Shown here piece by piece: positions 8,901 through 30,412 of a stretch of DNA of 64,000 bases. Source of the stretch: an uncultured Candidatus Saccharibacteria bacterium (GTDB taxonomy: Bacteria > Patescibacteriota > Minisyncoccia > Phycocordibacterales > CAIRYW01); assembly GCA_964446625.1 (NCBI GenBank), contig CAYUPH010000003.1, positions 64,192 through 128,191 of the forward strand, written 5' to 3'. The first letter of the stretch is position 1, and the number at the start of each line of letters is the position of its first letter. Below the pieces are notes generated by a model. It worked only from the letters and a program-made list of their open reading frames with translations. It did no database searches and was not told where the DNA came from. A program made the translations under genes and the position numbers.

Positions 8901-9437
8901 TTATTTTTTTCGCTGTGAATTTTTTAATACTTCTATATCTTTTTGAAGAAGTGAGAGCATTTCTTCAATTCGACTAATTGTGTCACTTTTTTGTTTTGCA
9001 TTTTCTTCATCGCTACCTTCCTCAATCTCCTCAACATCCTCTTGAATCTCATCAATGTCCTCCTGAATTTCGTCGACGTCCTCTTGAATCTCATCAATGT
9101 CTTCCTGGATTTCATCGACATTTTCTTCGATTTCTTCTACGTCTTCTTGGATTTCATCAATGTCTTCCTGAATTTCGTCGATATCTTTTCCTACCTCTTC
9201 GATTTCTTTTGTGTTTTGGTTTACTGAATACTGAATGAGTATAGAGAGGTAAATAGCCTCGAGGGAAACCAAGGTTGTAAGGAAAAGAAGTACTTGGTCT
9301 AAGTTAAACCCAAAAAGCGGAAGAACGAGACATAGTATAAAAAAAAGTGTATGAAGAATAAGTGAAGGTACTGAACCTACAGAGCGTGTCACTTTCTCCG
9401 CCAGTGTGTCTTCGGTTTTGAGTACTTTCTCTTTCAT
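8901..9437 (-). CDS. DUF1003-like two-TM membrane protein with long acidic heptad-repeat tail
   Basis: TM segments then LSILIQYSVNQNTKEIEE followed by (EIQEDID/EIEENVD)n repeats. Confidence 0.55.
   Translation of the reverse strand: MKEKVLKTEDTLAEKVTRSVGSVPSLILHTLFFILCLVLPLFGFNLDQVLLFLTTLVSLEAIYLSILIQYSVNQNTKEIEEVGKDIDEIQEDIDEIQEDVEEIEENVDEIQEDIDEIQEDVDEIQEDIDEIQEDVEEIEEGSDEENAKQKSDTISRIEEMLSLLQKDIEVLKNSQRKK
9017..9205. repeat. ~9 tandem 21-bp repeats inside CDS 8901..9437
   Basis: cctcttgaatctcatcaatgt / cctcctgaatttcgtcgacgt etc.; encodes acidic heptads; coding repeat, not CRISPR (no spacers). Confidence 0.7.
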
Positions 9438-9523
9438 ATGGCTATTCTAGCAAATAAACTTGAATTTAAAAACGATGACCTACTGTTTTTTGAGAATTTT
9501 CTGATTTCTGCTATAATCCTCGC

Positions 9524-9772
9524 GTGGAAGAAAACAATATTCCAAAGGAAAAAGAGGTAGAAAAGCCTATAAAAACAAAAGCAGAGCTTATCGCTTTTGC
9601 ATACGACCTCGGTTTTGCAATCATTCTTCCGCTTGCACTTCTCGGCTTTGGAGGCAGATACCTCGACCGTTCACTCGGAACTTCACCCATTTTCCTTCTT
9701 GCAGGACTTCTACTCTCGTTGGTTTCAACTGGAATTATTATTGTTAAAAAAGTAAAAAAATTTAGCCTTTAG
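9524..9772 (+). CDS. atpZ: ATP synthase protein I/AtpZ-like small membrane protein (GTG start)
   Basis: 82 aa, two TM helices with glycine-rich loop (LLGFGGRYLD), immediately upstream of atpB. Confidence 0.55.
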   Translation: MEENNIPKEKEVEKPIKTKAELIAFAYDLGFAIILPLALLGFGGRYLDRSLGTSPIFLLAGLLLSLVSTGIIIVKKVKKFSL

Positions 9773-9777
9773 AATTT

Positions 9778-10635
9778 ATGCATATATCAATCGCAGCAGA
9801 AACACTTTTTCATATCGGCGCTTTCCCTGTCACAAACAGCATGCTTATGGCATGGATTGTCGTTATCTTTCTTTCTGTAACAGTCTTTTTTGTTAGTCGA
9901 AATCCAAAGAAAGTTCCAGGACGGCTTCAAGCGCTTATGGAGCTTATTCTCGAGAAATTTGTTGATTTTATGCAAGTGTTTACTGGCGACAGAGCTCTTG
10001 TAAAAAAATATCTTCCAATTGTTGGAACAATCTTTTTCTTTGTTCTCTTTTCTAACTGGGCAGGAATTTTGCCTGGAGTTGGAACAATAGGTTTTTATGA
10101 AAAACATGAGGAGGAAGCGGTCAAAGAAGTTGTGGACATAGAAGGAGTAGAGGGAAACCCTGCTTCTCCTTCCGAAGTTCACGAAGCCGAAGCTCCTACT
10201 TCAGAGACTGCAGAGCATGAAAACGCTCCGCTTGTACCATTCTTTAGATCTGGATTTGCTGACCTCAACATGACGCTTGCGCTAGCGCTCATTGTTGTGA
10301 TTTCAACACACATCATTGGGTTTGTTTCAATTGGAGTTTCGCACCACATAGGAAAATTCTTACAAAATCCATTCAAAAAACCTATCGGCGCTTTCATTGG
10401 TTTTCTAGAGCTTATTGGTGAAGTTTCAAGAGTTGTCTCATTTTCTTTTAGGCTTTTTGGAAACCTGTTTGCAGGAGAGGTTCTTCTCATGATTATTTCT
10501 TCTCTTGTTCCCTATTTTATTCCGATTCCGTTTCTAGGGCTTGAAGTATTCGTAGGTTTTGTGCAAGCACTCATCTTCTCTACCCTTGCAATGACTTTTA
10601 TCGCAGCTTCAACGCAGCACCACGAGGAGCACTAA
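9778..10635 (+). CDS. atpB: F0F1 ATP synthase subunit a
   Basis: Conserved FRLFGNLFAGEVLL (essential Arg) region; contains unusual acidic ~55-aa insertion (EEEAVKEVVDIEGVEGNPASPSEVHEAEAPTSETAEHEN). Confidence 0.9.
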   Translation: MHISIAAETLFHIGAFPVTNSMLMAWIVVIFLSVTVFFVSRNPKKVPGRLQALMELILEKFVDFMQVFTGDRALVKKYLPIVGTIFFFVLFSNWAGILPGVGTIGFYEKHEEEAVKEVVDIEGVEGNPASPSEVHEAEAPTSETAEHENAPLVPFFRSGFADLNMTLALALIVVISTHIIGFVSIGVSHHIGKFLQNPFKKPIGAFIGFLELIGEVSRVVSFSFRLFGNLFAGEVLLMIISSLVPYFIPIPFLGLEVFVGFVQALIFSTLAMTFIAASTQHHEEH

Positions 10636-10666
10636 ATAAAATTAAATTTAGGTAGAAAAGTAACCG

Positions 10667-10694
10667 GCCGGCGTTCCTCTAGAGGAACGCCGGC
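10667..10694. terminator. perfect 28-bp GC palindrome just after atpB stop
   Basis: gccggcgttcctct|agaggaacgccggc; no clear T-tract, may be terminator/processing hairpin or part of the downstream structured element. Confidence 0.35.
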
Positions 10695-10699
10695 ACAAC

Positions 10700-11795
10700 C
10701 CACCACTGAAAAAACTTTCACTTTAATTTTTGCACGCTTTAATAAAACCGTGCAAGTGGAAAACGAAGTCAGCCCAGTCCCCCGTGTGGGGACTGGGCTG
10801 TGAGCTTTGTTGAATGGGGAATGGGAGCCGCCACCGTGTGTGGCGCTTAGAAGGGGTACGCTCGTCCATTGTATCCTCCTTCGAGGGACTGTGCTCCCAA
10901 TTCAACCAACGAGCTCTAATTAGAGTAATAACATAGATGTATTTACATGTCAATACGTAAACGAAATGAGCCCCGGCCTCCTGCTTGCGCAAGTGACCGG
11001 AGCTCTCCAGAGAGTATTTCGGCGCTAAGTAGGCGTAAAAGCCGGCAGCAGCCCTCTCTGGATTCGGTGAACAAGTTATGGTGTAACCTCCAACCACACC
11101 TTAACCCATCCACCAAAGTGAGAGGACGGAGAACCAAACTTTCCTAAACCAACGGATTGTTAAGTGTTGATTTGCCTAGTTCTCCGCCCAAAAGAGCGAA
11201 AATTGTGAAGTGATATTACTCACATTTTCGCTCTTTGTCAATATAAAATAAATGAGGAAGGTCCCGCCGGCACAGAGTGCTAGCGGGACCTTTTGTTAGC
11301 CACCCTGCTCCGGCGAATCCGACCCTTCGACTCGGTTTGGAGCATGAATGGCTCTACCTTTTGGTGGTTGCATGGCAACCTCTTTCGGCTAACCACCAAA
11401 TTGGGTGGCAGAGAAGCGCACGGCGCCTGATGAAACTCACCCGAGCCCAGCAGACAATTCCATTTTGCCCGCGCTTCTCCGCCAAATTTAAGGCCAAGGC
11501 GACGATTGATTTCCGAAAACCCGTCTAGTTGGGTTTATTTGCTGTTCGTCGCCTTGGCCAAAGCATGAAAACCGTTTATTAGCCTACTCCTTAAGTAAAA
11601 ATAGTCAAATGAAGATGGCCCGGCTGCAGCTGCAGCCGGGCCCCGATTCGAGCGTGCAAAAGCCCCGTTAAGCACCTCGATGTTCCGAGCGGCCAAGCGA
11701 ATGCACACAGGGCCCAGATACCCTGGTGCATTTCCGCTCGAAAGATTAAAAAGCCGCTAAAACTATACATTAAATATACTTAATGTCAAACAGTT
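10700..11795. ncRNA. candidate large structured non-coding element (unclassified) between atpB and atpE
   Basis: ~1.1 kb without convincing ORF, locally GC-rich in AT-rich context, dense in long perfect stems (cagcccagtcccc/ggggactgggctg; ggtcccgccggc...gccggcgggacc-like; ggccaaggcgacg/cgtcgccttggcc; gcccggctgcagctgcagccgggc; ttcgagcg/cgctcgaa; ttggtgg/ccaccaa enclosing ggttgcatggcaacc). Confidence 0.35.
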
Positions 11796-11800
11796 TTCCC

Positions 11801-11829
11801 TTGCGAGAGCCTAAAATTTGGCTTATAAT
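11801..11829 (+). promoter_or_regulatory. sigma70-like promoter for atpE-atpC
   Basis: TTGCGA - 17 nt - TATAAT about 55 nt upstream of atpE ATG. Confidence 0.55.
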
Positions 11830-11885
11830 ACGCGCAAATGACCGAAAGGTCTTATTTATTTGTTTATTAATAATTATAAAAAAAC

Positions 11886-12113
11886 ATGGAAGTAGAAAAC
11901 CTTAAAGTATTTGCAGCAGCCCTTGCTATCGGTGTCGGAGCTCTCGGTCCCGCTATTGGAATCGGAAACCTTGCCGGAAAAGCTATGGAATCAATTGGAC
12001 GAAATCCAGAAGCTGCTTCAAAAGTACAATCAGCGATGATTCTTGCTATCGCCTTTACAGAAGCGATTGCAGTTTACGCTCTTGTAGTTGCCCTTATTAT
12101 CCTTTTTGCTTAG
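11886..12113 (+). CDS. atpE: F0F1 ATP synthase subunit c
   Basis: 75 aa hairpin proteolipid, conserved carboxylate helix ...[20 protein letters not shown]. Confidence 0.9.
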
Positions 12114-21651: not shown

Positions 21652-22920
21652 TTAAAACAAATCGTCTCCAGTGATACTTTCAACTCTTTTGTTGTAATTG
21701 ACAGATCGTTTTACAAAGAAGTCGAGGTGCTTTGTTGTCATGATTTCGTCGTTAAACCATTCAGTCTCCTCGAGAAGTTTCTCGTCAATTGTAAAGAGTT
21801 TCTTGAATCCAATTGCTGAAAGTGAGTTATTGAATCGGTTTTTGATGAACTCAAGAACTGTAGCTTTTGAAAGGAACGGAATCTCTCCTTTTTCAAAAAT
21901 CCAATCTACAATTGCCTGCTCTGCTGCAAATGCCTCGTTGCATAAATCGTACACAGACTGCTCGTACTCTTCTGTAAACCACTCTGGGTGTTCTGTTTTA
22001 ATAATTTTAAGAAGGTCGATACCAAAGAGTCCGTGAATTTGCTCTTCTTTTGAAGTCGCTTCAATAACATTCGACATTCCTCGGAAGAGTCCTTTGAACT
22101 TGTTGAAGGACATGATGATGAGGAATTGTGAAAACAGCGACACATGTTCAATAAACAAAGAAAAAAGAAGAAGTGTTCGAGAATAATCTTTGTGATGATC
22201 AGAATGTGCGTTTGCAATCGCCTTTTCAATATAGTTGATTCGGCTAATGATTGCAGGAACCTCTTTGATTTTTTCGAATTCAGCATTTAGTCCAAGGATT
22301 TCAAGAAGGTGCGCGTAGGCGTCTTGGTGACGCACTTCACTTTCTGCAAAAGTTGCTCCCACAGCACCAACTTCTGGCTTTGGAATTTTTTTGTAAATGT
22401 CTCCCCAAAAAGTTTTTACAGACACTTCTACTTGAGCAATTGCGAGCATTGCATTTTTGAGAGCGTTTTTCTCTGCTTCGCTTGTGTTGACGAGGTAATC
22501 GTGAATATCAGAAGTAAAATTAAACTCAGTGTGTAGCCAATATGAGTGACGAATTCCGTCTACATACTCCAGGAGCTCTGGGTACTCATAAGGCTTTAGT
22601 GCTAGTCGCTTCTTAAAGATGTCTCGCTTTCGAAGTTCTGCCTGTTTCTGTCTGTAGAGGATATACGCCTTTGCAGTCGCGTGTAGTCCTGAGTCCATGA
22701 GCGCAAATTCTACTTGATCCTGAACACCTTCAACTGTTGGTGTACTGTCTCCAAACTTTTCTTCAAGATTTTTGATGGCAAGGTCTGTAATTTCAGAAAT
22801 TTTTTGCTTTGAAGCTTCTTCTCCAGTTGCAACGCACGCTTTTCTAATAGCTTCTTCGATTCGAACTCGGTCGAATTCGACAATCGAACCATTTCTTTTT
22901 ATTACAAGTTGTATTGCCAT
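21652..22920 (-). CDS. nrdB: ribonucleotide reductase beta (R2) subunit with N-terminal ATP-cone domain
   Basis: N-terminus VIKRNGSIVEFDRVRIEEAIRKA...AKAYILYRQ (ATP-cone) fused to ferritin-like R2 core (iron ligands in ...EAIH.. / ..EEQIHG.. regions). Confidence 0.8.
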   Translation of the reverse strand: MAIQLVIKRNGSIVEFDRVRIEEAIRKACVATGEEASKQKISEITDLAIKNLEEKFGDSTPTVEGVQDQVEFALMDSGLHATAKAYILYRQKQAELRKRDIFKKRLALKPYEYPELLEYVDGIRHSYWLHTEFNFTSDIHDYLVNTSEAEKNALKNAMLAIAQVEVSVKTFWGDIYKKIPKPEVGAVGATFAESEVRHQDAYAHLLEILGLNAEFEKIKEVPAIISRINYIEKAIANAHSDHHKDYSRTLLLFSLFIEHVSLFSQFLIIMSFNKFKGLFRGMSNVIEATSKEEQIHGLFGIDLLKIIKTEHPEWFTEEYEQSVYDLCNEAFAAEQAIVDWIFEKGEIPFLSKATVLEFIKNRFNNSLSAIGFKKLFTIDEKLLEETEWFNDEIMTTKHLDFFVKRSVNYNKRVESITGDDLF

Positions 22921-24478: not shown

Positions 24479-24931
24479 TTAGGCTGCTGCGAGGAGCGGA
24501 GGTGGTTTGGAACCTCTGCTGTAGTCCATAAAGACCCGAATCCCTCTCTGCGCAAGTAGATGCAGGATACTCTCGGCGAGCTCAGGGACAGAAAATAGTG
24601 TAGACGGCCGATGAATAGTAACTGTCATCGATCCAGTTTTCCCTGTTTCGTAAACCGCATCTATCCACAGAAGCAGTTCGTCACACTTCCCCTTAACTAC
24701 TTGCAGGGGCTCCAACGGGTTGCGAGAAGACCTGTTTCCTAAGCCGGTCTCATTTATAATGATTCCGGTTGCGCTCCTAAGGTCCCTTCTTGCGAAAACA
24801 ACAGGAACATACAAATAGACTTGCTTTCCTGTGATTTGCTTATTCGGGAATTCTTCCGGCTCACAAAGACCCGAAAGTCTCACAAGGGTTTCGCGAGCTA
24901 AAAGCTCGATGGCTGTTGCTTGTTTCTTCAT
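24479..24931 (-). CDS. hypothetical protein, GC-rich, member of 3-gene paralog-like cluster
   Basis: 150 aa; GLCEPEEFP motif resembling FCxVxxxMPCxP of neighbours. Confidence 0.45.
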   Translation of the reverse strand: MKKQATAIELLARETLVRLSGLCEPEEFPNKQITGKQVYLYVPVVFARRDLRSATGIIINETGLGNRSSRNPLEPLQVVKGKCDELLLWIDAVYETGKTGSMTVTIHRPSTLFSVPELAESILHLLAQRGIRVFMDYSRGSKPPPLLAAA

Positions 24932-25010
24932 CTACCAAAATAATACAACATTTAGTATAAAAAGTAAACAAATAAAAAAACTCCTAGGAAACCCTAGGAG
25001 CCTAATTGTG

Positions 25011-25439
25011 TTATTTGCCCCAAAGCAGATTTGCTAGCTTCGGAGTAGGAACTAGAATGATATCCTCCTCTCCTTCCTGCCCTATCATTTGCATCTCCAC
25101 GAAGCCCTCTAGGACCAGCCTCATGAAGCCGTGTGAAAGAGCAAGAAAGTCATCAATCCCCAATTCCACAAGCGGGATAGCTGCATGATGGTCAACTTCT
25201 TTTCCGAGCGCACCTTCCCTCCACTGGAGCTCCAGGTGTCTCAAGAAAGTTGTCACAAGAATCCCTACCCACCTTCCCTTGTCACAGGAGAAGTGAACTA
25301 GCTCTTCTGCTATGTAACATGCCTCCTCTGATAGTGTGGCGTGTGGACGAGGAATCTTGCGTCCAGCAAGTTTTTTGGGCTTGCAAGGCATTTTTGACAG
25401 CACTTGGCAAAAGCCGTCAGCAATTAAAGGATTTGCCAT
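25011..25439 (-). CDS. hypothetical protein, GC-rich paralog B
   Basis: 142 aa; GFCQVLSKMPCKP ... LVPTPKLANLL, paralogous to 25507..25911 product. Confidence 0.5.
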   Translation of the reverse strand: MANPLIADGFCQVLSKMPCKPKKLAGRKIPRPHATLSEEACYIAEELVHFSCDKGRWVGILVTTFLRHLELQWREGALGKEVDHHAAIPLVELGIDDFLALSHGFMRLVLEGFVEMQMIGQEGEEDIILVPTPKLANLLWGK

Positions 25440-25506
25440 AAAGAACAGGCGCTATTTTACAATATTTTTGCGAGATTTCAATAAAAAATCCCCAGGCGTT
25501 GGGGAG

Positions 25507-25911
25507 TTATGTGAGAGCTGCTTGCTGAAGTAGAGTCCCCACAAGTTTGGCAGTGGGAAAGTAGAAGACTCTACCCTCAAGGAATGATAGTTCTACCCAC
25601 CCTTCCCTTGTAAGTGTAATCAGTTGAAGTTCAACGATGACACCTTCGGCTTGACTTCGTGAATCTTTGAAGAGATGTTCTGCTGAAACTCCTACCCAGA
25701 ACCCCTGAGCCCCGGAGTTGGATAGTAGTCGAACTACTGCTACAACTCCAGGTATTGCACAGGCAAGGATAGTTCTCTCCAAATCTTTGCCGAGGATGTC
25801 TTGAGGGGTGCAGGGCATTTCTTCTGCAACAGTGCAGAAGTCTCCGCCCAGATAGGAATGATTTGTCATAAAGAGCGTTTGAACTCTACAACACTTTTGA
25901 GAGGATTTCAA
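25507..25911 (-). CDS. hypothetical protein, GC-rich paralog C (possible roadblock/LC7-like)
   Basis: GDFCTVAEEMPCTP ... IPGVVAVVRLLSNSGAQGFWVG ... YFPTAKLVGTLL; true start may be internal MTNHSY. Confidence 0.5.
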   Translation of the reverse strand: MKSSQKCCRVQTLFMTNHSYLGGDFCTVAEEMPCTPQDILGKDLERTILACAIPGVVAVVRLLSNSGAQGFWVGVSAEHLFKDSRSQAEGVIVELQLITLTREGWVELSFLEGRVFYFPTAKLVGTLLQQAALT

Positions 25912-26238
25912 TTACTCGTCTCTGTTTTCTCTTTCCTCCATTTCTCGGTAGCAAATTTCTTTATAGCCAGTGTTGCATATGTCGAGTATTTCGCTCTCAG
26001 AAAATCCGGAGATTTTATAAGCTGACTCATTATTTTCATCCATAAGTGCAACCGTGTATGTTCCATCTTCTTCCCTTTTTAAACCATAGAGGCTCACCCA
26101 CCCAATACCAATTCCCTCTTTGATTTCAGGTACTGTTTTTAAATCTGGTGGAGTTTCATCAAAAGTGCCTCTAGGAAAAAAGTAAGTTTCTAGTAGTTCT
26201 TCTATTTTACTTCGGTGTTCAGGTTCTTTTTCGCTCAT
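25912..26238 (-). CDS. hypothetical acidic protein (108 aa)
   Basis: Intact ORF, AT-rich codon usage like host. Confidence 0.4.
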   Translation of the reverse strand: MSEKEPEHRSKIEELLETYFFPRGTFDETPPDLKTVPEIKEGIGIGWVSLYGLKREEDGTYTVALMDENNESAYKISGFSESEILDICNTGYKEICYREMEERENRDE

Positions 26239-26340
26239 GTTTGTATAGTAGCATGAAAGTTTTAGCTAAAACAAAAGCCGCCTTGTGACGGGCTTTTGTT
26301 TTCTATAAAAGGAAACTGTGGTGAAAATTTAGGACAAATA

Positions 26341-26559
26341 AACTAATCGACACCTAAACTTTTTTTAACTCTCGCAATCTCTTCTGCGTTTGTTTCTCCT
26401 AATTCTTCTAGTCTCCTTCTATCTTTTTCTAAATCTTCTTCATCACCTGGTGAAAGTTCTTCTCCATAAACCCTTGGAGCATCGGTAGTAGCTATTCTTT
26501 TTATTAAAATCTCTACTTCGCCCCAAGACCTATCTGGCTTATTAAAATAAGCTGCTGGA
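26341..26559 (-). pseudogene. 3' gene remnant (72-codon C-terminal fragment without start codon)
   Basis: Minus-strand frame reads ...NPAAYFNKPDRSWGEVEILIKRIATTDAPRVYGEELSPGDEEDLEKDRRRLEELGETNAEEIARVKKSLGVD* but upstream in-frame stop and no Met; lies between terminator-like repeat and defence island. Confidence 0.35.
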
Positions 26560-26738
26560 TTTTATTATAGAGTCTCCAGACAATGTCTACTATTAGGACT
26601 TCTTTGATCCAATGCAGAAATATATATTTCTTACGTTGTGTTGATGAATGGATACAAAAAATAGTATTGTCGAATTTTATATTTAGATATGGTTTAACTT
26701 AATATAATACGGTAAGTTAATGAATACAGTACCTGATA

Positions 26739-28622
26739 TTAAGATTGCCATTTATCCAAGAGATTAATAGTTTGACTTACGGGCTGATTTTTTCTATTTG
26801 AAATTTTACCAACTTTCATTACAACTGGGATTTGAGCAAGCAAGCCAGCAAGAATACATGTACCAGTTGCTAGGTTTGGAATTGAATCAGCAGATACCTT
26901 ATCCAAATAGGCAATTGTTTTTTCAACAGCCAATAAATCATTATTATTAATAAGTCTGTGTAGAAAATAATTATGAAGTTGTGAAATGATTGTCGGAGAT
27001 ATATCTGAAGGTCTTTGACTTGAAATAGTAAGGAATGTACCGAACTTTCTTCCTTCTTTAATAATCTCCTCAAATGTTTCCAATCTGTAATCTTTCCATT
27101 GCTCACTCTCACGTTGAGAACTACCAGATAGTATATTGTGAGCTTCATCAATAATTATATGTAGCGAATTTTCCTTATTATTACTAGATTTTTTAGTATC
27201 ATAAAGCTCCTTACAAATAAGTAGAGGTAGCATTTTTCTAATATCCAAGTTTACATCCTTTAGGGATATAATAGTAAGATTTTTAACAAACCTTTCTCTT
27301 CCTTGCACTGAAATAACCTTTTCCAAATCAAGAACCCTTTTTTCCATTCGCTTGATTAATGGAGAAAGATGTTCACGGTTTGAAAAACCTCTAATCATTT
27401 CATCATAATATTTTATAATAATTCTGACTCCAATTTTCTTAATACCCGATAATAATGAAACATCAATAGTTTCAATTGAATTAATGGTGTCTTCGATTTT
27501 TACAGCAAATGTTGGCGAATCACTATAGATTTTATCTGATAGGCCAGACTTTAGGTAAAAACTAATATTCTCATTGCCACCAAATAAATTCCCTTTAAAA
27601 TAATCTCCGGCTAATTTAAGGTCATTATTATCCAAAAAAGAAGCTAATTCATAAAGTAAATCTACAGTTAGTGACCTATCAATATTTTTTCCACTAATTG
27701 AAGTCGCAGCTTTTATTTTCTCTATAATCAACCCTTTAAATGATTCATCAGTATTTATTCTAGATTCTATGTAATAATCTTTTATTGCCCTATTTATAAA
27801 TGGAATCTGAGTCTTTTCTGTAGCTTCAAGAAAGATTGACCAGAAACTTACATCTTTTAAGGTCTCCTTTTTTATAGGAAACCTATCATCTCCCTCATCT
27901 GTGCTAGTTGAAAGTTTATATACATTTTTATATTTTTTTTCAATTATCACATCATCGTCAGCATATTCGCCATTAAAATCAATCATAAAAAACTTTGCTT
28001 TTGACTTAAAACTGGCATTGTCTTTAAATTTCTTAAACAATTCTCTAAATAATTTTGCCAATGTGTATGATTTTCCACTTCCTGTGTTTCCAAAAATTCC
28101 GATATGACTAGCAAATAAACTATTAATACCTAAATCAATTCTCTGCCCATCATCGTAAGCTAATGTACCAACCTCGATTCTCTCATCTCCTTTTTGTATA
28201 AAATTGTGGATTTCTTCAAACTCCTCCTTGCGTAATAAAAAACACTTATTATCAATAAGGGGTAATTCCTTAATACCTCTGTAAAATGAACCGTCCTCAA
28301 TAAAGCCGAGTATTTTGACGTTTAAAATTCTATTTATCTTTTCTTTATTACTCTTATAACTTGTTTTAAGATAGTCCCTATCTTCAGTGATTGACTCTCC
28401 TTCAATTTTTCCAACCATCTCTAAAAAACCTTTTTTTATTTTAATGTATCCACCCACAAAAATATTTTGGATTATGTCTCCTTTATATAAAACTGAAGAA
28501 GTATTTTTTCCCTTATCAACTTTAATTTTAATTGATTGCCCCTCAACAGCAAAAACTACCCCAATTCTAAATATTGAATTATCAACAATATGTGTTCCGG
28601 TATTATTTTCCAGTATTTTCAT
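26739..28622 (-). CDS. herA: HerA-like (FtsK/HerA superfamily, DUF87) ATPase, partner of SIR2 in SIR2-HerA defence system
   Basis: 627 aa; N-terminal HAS-barrel-like region, Walker A GIFGNTGSGKSYTLAKL, Walker B LHIIIDEAHNIL; 6 nt downstream of SIR2 gene. Confidence 0.8.
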   Translation of the reverse strand: MKILENNTGTHIVDNSIFRIGVVFAVEGQSIKIKVDKGKNTSSVLYKGDIIQNIFVGGYIKIKKGFLEMVGKIEGESITEDRDYLKTSYKSNKEKINRILNVKILGFIEDGSFYRGIKELPLIDNKCFLLRKEEFEEIHNFIQKGDERIEVGTLAYDDGQRIDLGINSLFASHIGIFGNTGSGKSYTLAKLFRELFKKFKDNASFKSKAKFFMIDFNGEYADDDVIIEKKYKNVYKLSTSTDEGDDRFPIKKETLKDVSFWSIFLEATEKTQIPFINRAIKDYYIESRINTDESFKGLIIEKIKAATSISGKNIDRSLTVDLLYELASFLDNNDLKLAGDYFKGNLFGGNENISFYLKSGLSDKIYSDSPTFAVKIEDTINSIETIDVSLLSGIKKIGVRIIIKYYDEMIRGFSNREHLSPLIKRMEKRVLDLEKVISVQGRERFVKNLTIISLKDVNLDIRKMLPLLICKELYDTKKSSNNKENSLHIIIDEAHNILSGSSQRESEQWKDYRLETFEEIIKEGRKFGTFLTISSQRPSDISPTIISQLHNYFLHRLINNNDLLAVEKTIAYLDKVSADSIPNLATGTCILAGLLAQIPVVMKVGKISNRKNQPVSQTINLLDKWQS

Positions 28623-28628
28623 TTATGT

Positions 28629-29675
28629 CTATACAACTTCTTCAACAAGGTCATTTTGACCAATAATCGGACCAAAAATATCTTTATTTAATGTTTCAAA
28701 ATTATATTTCCTTCCATCTTCTGGTACCACAATTTTAATATTTTTATTTTTTGCTTCGTTTTCCATTTTCTCAAAAATTACCGATTTGCTTCCATGTGCA
28801 AATATGTATATTTTTAATGTTGGATTTGATGCGGCCACCCGAGTGGTCATATCCCTAATATGTTCATCGGCTAATGAAGATCCAATAACAAACAATACAC
28901 TATTTTCTTTTTCTAATTCATTTGAATATATCCTCAATAAGTCATAATAGTACTGTTGAAGAAGTGTGGTTTCATATTTAGCCTTCGTCGGATTCACGAT
29001 AACAAGCTTCTTATAGTATTTATCGAATTCATCACCATCTATCTTGTCAGCAACATCTCTAACATTCTGTAGATTCTTGTCTAATGAGATTACAGCCTCA
29101 TTTCCTATCTCATCAAACTTCCAAGTTAATGATCCGTGAATTTTAAGTATATTAAATACGGGTATTTCAGATGTGTTTTCATAATGAAGACTTTTCATAA
29201 AATATGATTTTTTAAAATTACCTAGATTGAATGTTGGATTAAATCTACCATTGAATCCATCATTGAATTCTATCCCTGTCCCTTCCAACGCCTTTTCAGA
29301 AAAAATATCTATATTTGTCGTAAATATATTTACTTGTTTAGTTAGAATAGAATTTTCTCTTTTTAGAACCAAATTATTTAATATTTTGTAAAAATTCGTA
29401 TAATTAGACATAACATAGTCTTTGTCTACTTCTAAAACATCATCCAATACCTTAATATTTCCTAACATAACTTTATTAAAATACTCTTTTTTCTTACTCA
29501 AGATTTCTTCACTTGTTTTAGATGTATCAGATAAAAAGAGCTCGATATCATTAAGAGTATCAAGAAAAGGCTTTGAAAGACCCGCACCTATCAAAAAGTT
29601 AATATTTGCACTGTCAATTGTTTTCTTTATATCTCTGAGAAGCGGTGTGTAATTAGACATATGTTGATTATGCAA
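28629..29675 (-). CDS. SIR2-family (DUF4020/SIR2_2-like) NAD+-utilising protein
   Basis: 348 aa; NINFLIGAGLSKPF Rossmann/NAD motif, TTNIDIF (Asn), KIHGSLTW (catalytic His), VLFVIGSSL C-terminal motif. Confidence 0.8.
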   Translation of the reverse strand: MHNQHMSNYTPLLRDIKKTIDSANINFLIGAGLSKPFLDTLNDIELFLSDTSKTSEEILSKKKEYFNKVMLGNIKVLDDVLEVDKDYVMSNYTNFYKILNNLVLKRENSILTKQVNIFTTNIDIFSEKALEGTGIEFNDGFNGRFNPTFNLGNFKKSYFMKSLHYENTSEIPVFNILKIHGSLTWKFDEIGNEAVISLDKNLQNVRDVADKIDGDEFDKYYKKLVIVNPTKAKYETTLLQQYYYDLLRIYSNELEKENSVLFVIGSSLADEHIRDMTTRVAASNPTLKIYIFAHGSKSVIFEKMENEAKNKNIKIVVPEDGRKYNFETLNKDIFGPIIGQNDLVEEVV

Positions 29676-29832
29676 TATTTTAAGTTTTTTTCAATCTTAC
29701 CGTATTTACTGGCTTGCCAGTCCAAACTACTTTTATGCATAGTACGATTTTATTCAAAAGCATATTATTATATATGTACAATTGAATAAGTAAGTAGCCT
29801 AAACTAAAAATCATAAAACTTTTTGCATGGTG

Positions 29833-29863
29833 AAAATTAAGTCTTGAAGAGACTTAATTTTTT
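29833..29863. terminator. AT-rich 10-bp hairpin between tRNA region and SIR2 promoter region
   Basis: aattaagtct-tgaag-agacttaatt followed by TTTTT. Confidence 0.35.
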
Positions 29864-29990
29864 AGTTAAAACTTATAAAAACTAGATAATTCCAGACCCC
29901 TAGCGGAATTTCTCCCTCGACTCAAGACTCGTCAGCCACTCGTCTTGGTCTGGGCACCAGCTCACTTGTTTTTACTGCTGTAAAAACATA

Positions 29991-30046
29991 GTTCCGCTGT
30001 TCGAATCCGCACGCAAGCAAAGTAGTTTGCTTGCTTAGGGTCCACC
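29991..30046 (+). other. tRNA-Ala 3'-half-like fragment in inverted orientation (T-arm-like + acceptor 3' strand)
   Basis: ccgctgTTCGAATCCgc ... ttagggtccacc mirrors AGCGGTTCGAATCCGCTAGGGTCCACC of adjacent tRNA-Ala but with 24-nt hairpin insert; cannot fold as tRNA. Confidence 0.4.
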
Positions 30047-30049
30047 GGA

Positions 30050-30076
30050 AAAACAAAAGCCGCCTTGTGGCGGACT
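30050..30076 (-). terminator. Rho-independent terminator after tRNA-Ala
   Basis: minus strand GTCCGCC-ACAA-GGCGGC followed by TTTTGTTTTT. Confidence 0.6.
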
Positions 30077-30091
30077 TAAGTTTTTCTACGG

Positions 30092-30164
30092 TGGACCCTA
30101 GCGGATTCGAACCGCTGACCTCCTCAGTGCAAATGAGGCGCTCTACCAACTAAGCTAAGGGCCC
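30092..30164 (-). tRNA. tRNA-Ala (anticodon UGC)
   Basis: GGGCCCTTAGCTTAGTTGGTAGAGCGCCTCATTTGCACTGAGGAGGTCAGCGGTTCGAATCCGCTAGGGTCCA; cloverleaf folds, G3:U70 Ala identity pair, GTTCGAATC T-loop, CC encoded. Confidence 0.9.
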
Positions 30165-30200
30165 TTGTATCCAATTGTAACATAACAGAGTCCTTAGTTT

Positions 30201-30258
30201 CCTTCATTTGCACAAATGAGTCGGCTAAAATCTTCTTTGCCAACTAAGCTAAGGGCCC
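30201..30258 (-). pseudogene. degenerate partial copy of tRNA-Ala 5' half
   Basis: 19-nt exact duplicate GGGCCCTTAGCTTAGTTGG (acceptor + D-arm) plus CTCATTTGtGCA anticodon-loop-like piece, remainder diverged. Confidence 0.5.
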
Positions 30259-30412
30259 GTTTTAATACAATTAAGATTCTATATGATTCCTCCTTTTTTC
30301 GCAAGAATCGGGGTTTTGCCCTCAGAGCCTTCCCTACTTATACACACTCGAGCCTTTGAATAGAGGGGTGCCTTGATATAATTAGTCTATTATTGGGTAA
30401 TAAATTATAAAC

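What the first reader, a model, noticed from the sequence alone, without database searches (positions are those of the whole stretch)
26266..30260. tRNA-Ala(UGC) as a scarred integration hotspot
An intact tRNA-Ala (30092..30164, minus) is followed on its 3' side by the AT-rich defence island.
- Upstream (30201..30258) is a degenerate duplicate of the tRNA 5' half (19-nt exact acceptor/D-arm copy).
- Just downstream (29991..30046, opposite strand) is an inverted, interrupted copy of its T-arm/3'-acceptor.
- The tRNA's terminator hairpin core (caaaagccgccttgtgGcggACtt, ~30053-30077) recurs almost exactly at the far island edge (caaaagccgccttgtgAcggGCtt, ~26270-26294; 16-nt exact core). These two copies bracket ~3.8 kb holding a gene remnant, HerA and SIR2.
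- No integrase is present, suggesting an old, decayed or repeatedly recombined insertion site.
Basis: seen in the sequence. Interest (0 to 1): 0.6.

Follow-up and report, generated by a model that had tools for sequence, protein, structure and literature searches.

The report
Defence cassette beside a scarred tRNA-Ala
In an uncultured ultra-small (Patescibacteria/CPR) bacterium, a foreign two-gene SIR2-HerA anti-phage cassette sits just downstream of a tRNA-Ala gene that is surrounded by real tRNA-derived scars. This is an ordinary integrase-less defence islet in a tRNA-adjacent variable spot, and the tRNA fragments are not its insertion boundaries.

Summary
Every sequence observation holds:
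- The tRNA-Ala(UGC) at 30090-30164(-) is intact.
- An upstream pseudo-copy covers tRNA positions 1-44.
- An inverted, interrupted copy of the tRNA 3' half lies downstream.
- A terminator direct repeat (39 nt, first 20 identical) sits at 26268-26306 and 30050-30088. It is found nowhere else in about 73 kb of this genome or about 1 Mb of related genomes.
- The gene remnant is real.
- No integrase is present.

The foreign DNA is a 3.3-kb low-GC (30% vs 40%) SIR2-HerA cassette at about 26593-29877. Its left edge truncates a gene of a ~200-aa HExxH-motif family. Independent assemblies break exactly at 26592, and one breaks at 29877.

No empty site was recovered, and no tRNA-derived repeat marks the island's far end. 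The upstream pseudo-tRNA is older than the cassette: it occurs in a 95%-identical relative and varies in length within the species. The inverted 3' copy is best read as a palindrome extension around the terminator hairpin.

The terminator repeats bracket a larger, older interval. They could be att-like relics or anchors for homologous exchange.

Verdict: a new member of a known kind, of low to moderate interest.

The parts
26268..26306 (.). Left copy of the 39-nt terminator repeat (D1L). It forms a 12-bp A/T-flanked hairpin, lies 37 nt after the stop of the truncated gene and sits just upstream of the 108-aa gene's start.
   Evidence: D1, I6; minus-strand terminator CCGTCACAAGGCGG+CTTTTGTTTT; dG -18, z -3.7
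26346..26561 (-). Gene remnant: the C-terminal ~72 codons (equivalent to residues ~136-203) of a ~200-aa HExxH-motif (HENAHxNVA) protein family found in CPR genomes. The N-terminal two-thirds are missing.
   Evidence: phmmer E 4e-16, 6e-15, 6e-12; tblastn, no N-terminal piece anywhere in the window; sequences; no gene called here by the source assemblies
26593..29877 (-). Low-GC (~30%) foreign cassette carrying the SIR2-HerA operon with its own promoter-like site and upstream hairpin.
   Evidence: GC and change points; contig ends at 26592 (L012, L013) and 29877 (L110)
26739..28622 (-). HerA-type ATPase (627 aa). Walker A (GNTGSGKS) and Walker B (IIIDEAH) motifs are present.
   Evidence: DUF87/HerA 6.6e-18; PADLOC HerA 5e-177; PDB 8yho 6e-32; sequence
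28629..29660 (-). SIR2-family NADase effector (343 aa as called by the source assemblies; the ORF can extend to 29675). The TTN(I)D and HGS catalytic motifs align with the solved SIR2 of a SIR2-HerA complex.
   Evidence: SIR2_2 2.9e-13; PADLOC SIR2 3.8e-60; PDB 8yhx_G 2.9e-12 with alignment
29667..29694 (-). Sigma-70-like promoter match (TTGAAA-16-CATAAT) directly upstream of SIR2.
   Evidence: consensus match only
29833..29861 (.). Perfect 12-bp AT-rich hairpin at the cassette's tRNA-proximal end. It may act as an insulator or terminator.
   Evidence: I22; z -6.3
29878..30049 (.). GC-rich (~50%), strongly structured 172-nt scar zone between the cassette and the tRNA terminator.
   Evidence: z -6.4; z -9.2
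29990..30046 (+). Inverted copy of the tRNA-Ala T arm and 3' acceptor strand, interrupted by a 25-nt hairpin (30011-30035). Together with the tRNA 3' half it forms a large imperfect palindrome centred on the terminator loop.
   Evidence: (I4, I10)
30050..30088 (.). Right copy of the terminator repeat (D1R). It is the intrinsic terminator of tRNA-Ala and abuts the tRNA 3' end.
   Evidence: CCGCCACAAGGCGG+CTTTTGTTTT; dG -23.4, z -5.9
30090..30164 (-). Intact tRNA-Ala(UGC).
30200..30258 (-). Pseudo-tRNA-Ala covering positions 1-44, in a short, deleted allele. Strain L004 and relatives L098/L099 carry a long allele: 24 nt of exact tRNA 5' end, an ~88-nt structured insert and an anticodon-arm-like hairpin.
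   Evidence: (D3)
30276..30304 (-). Promoter-like site (TTGCGA-17-TAGAAT) 18 nt upstream of the pseudo-tRNA. It is the probable ancestral tRNA promoter, now reading through the pseudo-copy into the intact tRNA.
   Evidence: consensus match only; function inferred

Best explanation
The locus is a variable zone downstream of tRNA-Ala in a Patescibacteria (CPR) chromosome. Its current occupant is a horizontally acquired, integrase-less, 3.3-kb SIR2-HerA abortive-infection cassette at about 26593-29877.

**Shown**
- The cassette is compositionally foreign.
- Its distal edge coincides with the truncation point of a gene of an HExxH-motif family.
- It has its own promoter-like site.
- It is followed by the hairpin terminator D1L and separated from the tRNA by terminator D1R and a 12-bp hairpin.
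- Assemblies show population heterogeneity at both cassette edges.

**Inferred**
- The cassette arrived by recombination that also deleted DNA. That recombination was either illegitimate or homology-anchored exchange with a divergent donor allele, for example after DNA uptake. It was not made by a tRNA-specific integrase encoded here.
- The tRNA-derived pieces are older, local rearrangements.
  - The upstream pseudo-tRNA is a partial tandem copy that likely pre-dates the cassette. It is shared with a 95%-identical relative and now varies in length within the species.
  - The downstream inverted 3'-half copy arose by fold-back or template-switch extension of the terminator palindrome.
- The two 39-nt terminator copies descend from one A-run/GCCGCC-hairpin/T-run terminator. 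They flank a larger, older 3.78-kb interval. They can serve as short homology anchors, or they are relics of an earlier element's junctions.

**Function (from established knowledge)**
The cassette should work as characterised SIR2-HerA systems do. HerA and SIR2 form a complex that, on phage infection, activates NAD+ depletion and nuclease/ATPase activities, which arrests the infected cell (PMC11514289, PMC11472057).
For: - **Composition and boundaries:**; contig ends.
- **Truncated gene at the cassette edge:**
- **SIR2-HerA identity and intact motifs:**. The same gene order is widespread on plasmids, at no more than 46% identity.
- **No mobility genes in 64 kb:**
- **No tRNA-derived repeat at the distal side:**
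- **Pseudo-tRNA shared with the 95% relative, with long and short alleles inside the species:**
- **Palindrome centred on the terminator loop:**
- **The D1 copies diverge at 5 of 39 positions and fold as different hairpins:**. This fits an old duplication rather than a junction made by the un-ameliorated cassette.
- **D1 is not a dispersed motif:**
- **No intact allele of the truncated gene exists among 5.8 billion protein clusters:**
Against: - No empty or alternative allele was recovered, so insertion polymorphism is inferred only from contig break points. L110's end at 29877 could be a coverage dead end.
- The lineage is sparsely sampled. The flanking histidine kinase has no homologue between 100% and 52% identity, and the 108-aa neighbour has none at all. 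Ancestral states therefore cannot be reconstructed.
- All 5 differences between the D1 copies lie in the second half, leaving a 20-nt identical core. That pattern also fits a site-specific crossover core.
- The palindrome-extension mechanism for the inverted copy is an inference from geometry alone.
Confidence: 0.55

Rival explanations
1. It proposes a decayed, integrase-mediated genomic island that integrated site-specifically next to the tRNA. The 39-nt terminator copies would be attL and attR, and the integrase gene would have been lost later, for example when SIR2-HerA replaced the island's interior.
For: - Significant direct repeats bracket the whole anomalous segment, and one of them abuts the tRNA 3' end.
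- A 20-nt identical core with all differences on one side resembles a crossover core plus diverged arms.
- The repeat is absent elsewhere.
- The locus is next to a tRNA and compositionally anomalous.
Against: - No integrase or excisionase was found anywhere in 64 kb.
- The repeat is the terminator, not part of the tRNA, and no tRNA 3' fragment lies at the distal end.
- The compositional and assembly boundaries (26592/3 and 29877/8) do not coincide with the repeats.
- No empty site or circular junction was found in any assembly.
- The left copy functions as the terminator of a gene whose family sits in ordinary chromosomal contexts in other CPR genomes.
Confidence: 0.2
2. This model says there is no hotspot. 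The two terminator copies would belong to a small dispersed REP-like or terminator family, or be convergent. SIR2-HerA would be a long-resident operon whose low GC reflects its own composition, and the tRNA fragments would be unrelated noise.
For: - The same 20-mer turns up in terminator-like hairpins of unrelated metagenome contigs, once directly after a tmRNA gene. This terminator design therefore recurs in nature.
- All spanning contigs show the same arrangement.
Against: - Only two copies occur in about 73 kb, and both lie at the edges of the anomalous segment.
- The other predicted terminators in the region have unrelated sequences.
- The 20-mer has only 5 hits in the whole metagenome collection.
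- A gene is truncated exactly at the GC shift.
- Two independent assemblies break at the same nucleotide.
- The tRNA-derived copies are statistically significant.
Confidence: 0.08
3. In this model the GC-rich 29878-30049 segment is a functional structured RNA gene on the + strand, not a scar. Candidates are a tRNA-like or tmRNA-derived small RNA ending in ...GGGUCCACC and sharing the bidirectional terminator with tRNA-Ala.
For: - The predicted structure is very stable (z -6.4).
- The segment ends with a tRNA-Ala-like 3' end followed by a terminator. This is the same layout and the same 20-mer seen after a genuine tmRNA in L105.
Against: - Neither Rfam nor ARAGORN detects a tRNA, tmRNA or any other family there. 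Relaxed ARAGORN calls are inconsistent.
- The body shows no similarity to the L105 tmRNA beyond the T arm.
- The T stem keeps only 3 of 5 pairs, no 5' acceptor strand is present, and no smpB is nearby.
- No homologous sequences are available to test covariation.
Confidence: 0.07

Closest known systems
SIR2-HerA two-gene anti-phage defence system (Paenibacillus sp. 453MF, E. coli and Staphylococcus systems; PDB 8yho/8yhx, 8j4u, 8xau)
   Same: It has the same two-gene order, SIR2 then HerA, 6 nt apart on one strand. PADLOC matches are strong (HerA 5e-177, SIR2 4e-60). The Walker A/B motifs and the SIR2 N/H motifs are conserved.
   Different: Identity to any plasmid-borne homologue is no more than 46% (HerA) and 35% (SIR2). 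The host is a Patescibacteria MAG. Activity has not been tested.
tRNA-adjacent defence or genomic-island hotspots that lack mobility genes, as described for E. coli and other pan-genomes (from my own knowledge, e.g. Hochhauser et al. 2023). Genomic islands enriched in defence genes in Patescibacteria are reported in PMC12455944.
   Same: A short foreign defence cassette lies next to a tRNA, with no integrase, between housekeeping flanks (RNR and DAO on one side; two-component system, Ddl and UvrABC on the other). There are signs of strain heterogeneity.
   Different: Variable occupancy could not be shown because no relatives or empty sites were recovered. The flanking repeat is a terminator hairpin, not core-gene homology.
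Integrase-mediated tRNA/tmRNA-targeting islands and prophages (Williams 2002 classification; from my own knowledge)
   Same: The locus is next to a tRNA gene, partial tRNA copies are present, direct repeats flank the segment, and the composition is anomalous.
   Different: There is no integrase. The repeat lies outside the tRNA. The partial tRNA copies are a 5' piece upstream and an inverted 3' piece, not a direct 3' repeat at the distal end.
Quasi-palindrome extension or template switching at hairpins (a general mutational mechanism; from my own knowledge)
   Same: The inverted tRNA 3'-half copy mirrors the tRNA across the terminator loop. This gives a ~130-nt imperfect palindrome at 29990-30121.
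   Different: A 25-nt hairpin interrupts one arm. The mechanism is inferred from geometry only.

Membership tests
tRNA (Rfam RF00005), tRNA-Ala(UGC) | Cloverleaf covariance-model score above the gathering threshold, with a UGC anticodon | tested here: met
   71.2 bits against a gathering score of 29; ARAGORN anticodon tgc
SIR2-HerA defence system | A SIR2-family NADase gene adjacent to and co-oriented with a HerA-type ATPase gene | tested here: met
   28629-29660(-) and 26739-28622(-), 6 nt apart; Pfam SIR2_2 and DUF87; PADLOC SIR2 3.8e-60 and HerA 5.2e-177
SIR2-HerA defence system | Catalytic motifs intact (SIR2 Asn/His; HerA Walker A/B) | tested here: met
   TTNID and KIHGS align with 8yhx_G; GNTGSGKS and IIIDEAH are in the HerA translation
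SIR2-HerA defence system | Confers phage resistance through NAD+ depletion | not testable with these tools
   This needs heterologous expression and phage challenge
Integrase-mediated tRNA-targeting genomic island | A tyrosine or serine recombinase gene at one end of the island | tested here: not met
   No recombinase or transposase Pfam domain in any ORF searched (41 of 47 non-overlapping ORFs of at least 110 aa in 64 kb)
Integrase-mediated tRNA-targeting genomic island | A direct repeat of the tRNA 3' portion at the distal island boundary | tested here: not met
   Aligning the tRNA to 26303-26600 on either strand scores at shuffle level. The direct fragment at 29898-29907 is not significant (93 of 1000 shuffles).
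Integrase-mediated tRNA-targeting genomic island | Flanking direct repeats (att) bounding the foreign DNA | tested here: inconclusive
   A significant 39-nt repeat brackets the segment. It lies 286 nt and 172 nt outside the compositional and assembly boundaries, and it is a terminator.
Integrase-mediated tRNA-targeting genomic island | Presence/absence polymorphism (an empty site in relatives) | tested here: inconclusive
   No empty site was found in any recovered contig. Contig ends at 26592 (two assemblies) and 29877, plus the L004 allele, show heterogeneity. The closest genomes by RNR (85% and 81%) lack synteny.
Dispersed REP-like or terminator repeat family | Many copies spread through the genome | tested here: not met
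   Two copies in the 64-kb window, none in 9 kb more, and none in 80 related loci. The whole genome was not available.
tmRNA (ssrA) gene or remnant on the + strand | A tRNA-like domain with paired 5' and 3' ends, a tag reading frame and pseudoknots | tested here: not met
   No ARAGORN or Rfam hit; no 5' acceptor strand; no similarity to the body of the L105 tmRNA
Xer/dif-exploiting integrative elements (IMEX) | Integration at a dif-like site with 11-nt arms and a 6-8 nt spacer, at the replication terminus | not tested
   D1 is a hairpin with a 4-nt loop, and no dif consensus for this lineage is available. This was considered only as a possible in-trans mechanism.

The most novel reading that the evidence does not exclude
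The 39-nt bidirectional terminator hairpin abutting tRNA-Ala may be a genuine recombination site. A recombinase encoded elsewhere in the genome or on a helper element would use it in trans to insert and swap integrase-less defence cassettes in CPR bacteria. This would be a cis-mobilisable cassette dock whose crossover core is the 20-nt identical part of the repeat.
Probability: 0.12. Interest if true: 0.6.

Novelty: new member of a known kind. Interest (0 to 1): 0.3.

Why it matters
CPR/Patescibacteria have tiny genomes and were long thought to carry few defence systems. A clearly foreign, apparently intact SIR2-HerA abortive-infection cassette next to a tRNA adds a concrete example of how such organisms acquire immunity without self-mobile elements.

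The locus also shows that tRNA scars near an island need not be att sites. Here they are better explained by local duplication and by palindrome growth at a terminator. The finding changes no concept, and its value is mainly as a documented case and a caution for island-boundary calling.

Tried and rejected
1. **Synteny through the RNR small subunit** (genome-contig scan). The best relatives, at 85% and 81% identity, have no tRNA-Ala and no shared gene order, so they give no empty site.
2. **Homologues of the flanking genes.** The histidine kinase has nothing between 100% and 52% identity. The 108-aa neighbour has no homologue at all.
3. **Exact-protein look-ups** of the histidine kinase and of the 122-aa, 108-aa, 150-aa, HerA and SIR2 proteins. 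These returned only the occupied arrangement or contigs broken at the tRNA.
4. **tmRNA-remnant idea** for 29878-30046, prompted by L105, where the same 20-mer follows a tmRNA. I rejected it. The tmRNA body shows no similarity, there is no 5' acceptor strand, there is no Rfam or ARAGORN support, and the relaxed ARAGORN calls are junk.
5. **A third, direct tRNA 3' fragment** at 29898-29907. It is not significant.
6. **A degenerate full-length inverted tRNA.** The 5' half is not significant.
7. **Other candidate junction repeats.** D13 (14 nt at 26319 and 29828) and a shared TCCAGAC 7-mer are at chance level and do not fit the contig break points.
8. **Viral, plasmid and phage searches** with island DNA and junction motifs. 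These found only distant SIR2-HerA homologues, tRNA-Ala matches and two chance coding hits.
9. **The remnant against the word-indexed protein database**. It found nothing, but the full HMMER scan did.
10. **One look-up failed** because my ORF start differed from the called gene.

Full report
**Context.** The window comes from an uncultured Patescibacteria (CPR) genome. The ribonucleotide-reductase small subunit at 21652-22920 finds its best relatives (85% and 81%) in MAGs labelled Saccharibacteria, Paceibacteria and Nomurabacteria. The same sequence occurs at 99.6-100% identity in contigs from ENA, JGI and Logan assemblies of several samples. The lineage is sparsely sampled. The flanking histidine kinase has no homologue between 100% and 52% identity. 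The 108-aa neighbour has none at all among 5.8 billion protein clusters.

**Checking the observation.**
- The tRNA-Ala(UGC) is intact at 30090/30092-30164 on the minus strand (71.2 bits).
- The upstream duplicate is real. There is a 19-nt exact match at 30240-30258 and a 24-nt repeat at 92% identity.
- A gapped alignment shows that 30200-30258(-) covers tRNA positions 1-44 with an 11-nt insertion. It scores 45 against a maximum of 28 in 1000 shuffles.
- The downstream inverted copy (29990-30046, + strand) has exact 12-nt and 11-nt matches to the T arm and the 3' acceptor strand, separated by a 25-nt hairpin. The chained score is 47.75, reached by 0 of 1000 shuffles.
- The terminator repeat is longer than reported. 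It spans 39 nt with one gap (26268-26306 vs 30050-30088), and the first 20 nt are identical. It scores 27 against 11.7 +/- 1.3 in shuffles.
- Both copies are predicted intrinsic terminators for minus-strand transcripts, and other terminators nearby have unrelated sequences.
- The core occurs only twice in the 64-kb window. It is absent from 9 kb of additional sequence from this genome and from 80 loci of related CPR genomes totalling about 1 Mb.
- The 20-mer has only five exact hits in the whole JGI metagenome collection.

**What lies between the repeats.**
- SIR2 (28629-29660/29675) and HerA (26739-28622) are confirmed by Pfam and PADLOC (HerA 5e-177, SIR2 4e-60). Both also match solved SIR2-HerA complexes (8yho/8yhx and others). 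The Walker A/B motifs and the SIR2 TTN(I)D/HGS motifs are intact.
- The same SIR2-then-HerA order is common on plasmids, but at no more than 46% identity.
- The three 1-kb windows covering 27001-30000 have the lowest GC in the window (0.296-0.301, against about 0.40).
- GC change points fall at about 26540-26620 and about 29892.
- The gene remnant is genuine. The frame at 26346-26561(-) matches the C-terminal ~70 residues (136-203) of ~200-aa proteins with a HENAHxNVA (HExxH) motif (E 4e-16 to 6e-12).
- No N-terminal part of that gene exists anywhere in the window.
- A 51%-identical homologue (P0123) sits as an ordinary chromosomal gene, near ruvB and dnaA/dnaN, in another CPR genome.
- The cassette's distal edge therefore coincides with a gene truncation.

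**Population evidence.**
- Every contig that spans the region carries the cassette, so no empty site was found.
- Two independent assemblies end at exactly 26592. They are a Logan k=31 contig from SRR6837571 and a MEGAHIT k141 contig from ERZ27282949. Both are 100% identical to the window near that end.
- A third contig (ERZ27282946) ends at 29877, 15 nt from the sharp GC change point.
- Contigs also break inside the tRNA (30119/30120 and 30137), as expected for a sequence shared among taxa.
- Strain L004 is 99.98% identical over 4 kb of the right flank. It switches at 30239/30240 to a different, long allele of the pseudo-tRNA.
- The same long allele occurs in a 95%-identical relative, L098/L099. 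It has 24 nt of exact tRNA 5' end, an ~88-nt structured insert and an anticodon-arm-like hairpin.
- The upstream pseudo-tRNA therefore likely pre-dates the cassette and is not its att site. The segment between it and the intact tRNA evolves much faster than the flank.

**Interpreting the scars.**
- A tRNA-targeting integrase would leave a direct repeat of the tRNA 3' part at the far end of the island. None is detectable at 26303-26600. A candidate direct fragment at 29898-29907 is not significant.
- The inverted 3'-half copy mirrors the tRNA across the loop of the terminator hairpin, giving a large imperfect palindrome at 29990-30121. A read-through minus-strand RNA would fold at -138 kcal/mol, z -9.2.
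- This geometry is what fold-back or template-switch extension of an existing palindrome produces, and it needs no recombinase. That mechanism is an inference.
- I tested whether the + strand piece could be a tmRNA remnant. The trigger was an unrelated metagenome contig (L105) that has the same 20-mer directly after a tmRNA 3' end.
- I rejected the idea. The tmRNA body shows no similarity, no 5' acceptor strand is present, and Rfam and ARAGORN find nothing.

**The terminator repeats.**
- The two copies differ at 5 of 39 positions, all in the second half, and they fold into different hairpins. The left copy uses a 12-bp outer stem, and the right copy uses a perfect 5-bp GC inner stem.
- The left copy terminates the truncated gene and the SIR2-HerA operon. 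The right copy terminates the tRNA.
- The repeats lie 286 nt and 172 nt outside the compositional and assembly boundaries of the cassette.
- I therefore regard the duplication as older than the SIR2-HerA arrival. It is either a relic of the junctions of an earlier element or a duplicated terminator that now offers 20-39 nt of homology on both sides of the variable segment.
- The identical 20-nt core keeps a site-specific origin possible. I give that rival 0.2.

**Mobility genes.** No integrase, recombinase, transposase or relaxase domain was found in any ORF searched across the 64 kb. That set is 41 of 47 non-overlapping ORFs of at least 110 aa; six shorter ORFs outside 15.9-42.7 kb were not searched. 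The flanks are housekeeping genes:
- on one side, ribonucleotide reductase, an FAD oxidoreductase and ATP synthase;
- on the other, a two-component system, Ddl and UvrABC.

**Comparison with known systems.**
- The cassette is a member of the SIR2-HerA defence family by every testable criterion. Its mechanism is taken from the literature (PMC11514289, PMC11472057).
- The locus as a whole behaves like the integrase-less, tRNA-adjacent defence hotspots known from well-sampled bacteria (from my own knowledge). Genomic islands enriched in defence genes have been reported in Patescibacteria (PMC12455944).
- It fails two defining tests for a classical integrase-mediated tRNA island: it has no integrase and no distal tRNA 3' repeat.

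**Verdict.** This is a new member of a known kind, with interest of about 0.3. The most novel reading still open is that the terminator hairpin is a docking site used in trans for cassette exchange. I put that at about 0.12 probability.

Noticed in passing
window 10636-11885: A 1.25-kb non-coding insert sits inside the ATP synthase operon, between the a subunit (9778-10635) and the c subunit (11886-12113). It has the highest GC in the window (~47%), no credible ORF and a dense series of long perfect hairpins (MFE -475 kcal/mol). Rfam gives no match at gathering threshold; the E<=1 scan returns only three weak hits far below their gathering scores. It could be a large structured RNA or an intron-like element.
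   Followed up: partly
L004 1-107; L098 31-206; L099 (equivalent to window ~30165-30258): A long allele of the pseudo-tRNA lies upstream of tRNA-Ala. It has a 24-nt exact tRNA 5' end, an ~88-nt GC-rich insert with three hairpins and an anticodon-arm-like 8-bp hairpin. The 176-nt fold gives z -3.4, and there is no Rfam match. L004 (same species as the window) and L098 differ by only 2 nt over their shared stretch, while the window carries a deleted short allele.
   Followed up: partly
L008 (SRR6837555), equivalent to window 29156, 29181, 29222: In one sample's strain, three substitutions split SIR2 into 159-aa and 122-aa ORFs while HerA stays identical. This may be inactivation of the toxic effector, or assembly error.
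   Followed up: no
L105 6505-6905: An unrelated metagenome contig carries the same 20-mer (AAAACAAAAGCCGCCTTGTG) as a terminator immediately after the ...TCCACCG 3' end of a tmRNA gene. This mirrors the + strand layout at window 30040-30069.
   Followed up: partly
window 21652-22920 (-): The ribonucleotide reductase small subunit carries an N-terminal ATP-cone domain. Relatives at 58-71% identity appear in MAGs labelled Woesearchaeota, Methanosarcinales, Erysipelothrix, Paenibacillus and Halalkalibacter. This suggests wide horizontal spread or mis-binning.
   Followed up: no
window 24479-26238 (-): Four small genes without any Pfam domain (150, 142, 120/134 and 108 aa) lie in a GC-elevated stretch (0.43-0.48) between the FAD oxidoreductase and the left terminator copy. 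The 108-aa protein has no homologue in 5.8 billion clusters. This may be a second, older lineage-specific insert at the same hotspot.
   Followed up: partly
window 26965-28127 (query positions 766-1928 of 26200-30300): Pieces of HerA DNA within this ~1.2-kb span (9% of the 4.1-kb query) are ~72% identical at nucleotide level to an 'ATP-binding protein' gene on Enterococcus faecium plasmids. This fits a low-GC donor pool for the cassette.
   Followed up: no
L100 (IMGVR_UViG_3300033176_000202) 9000-11875: A viral-catalogue contig carries a SIR2-HerA pair whose HerA is 46% identical to the window's. Its flanks were not examined.
   Followed up: no
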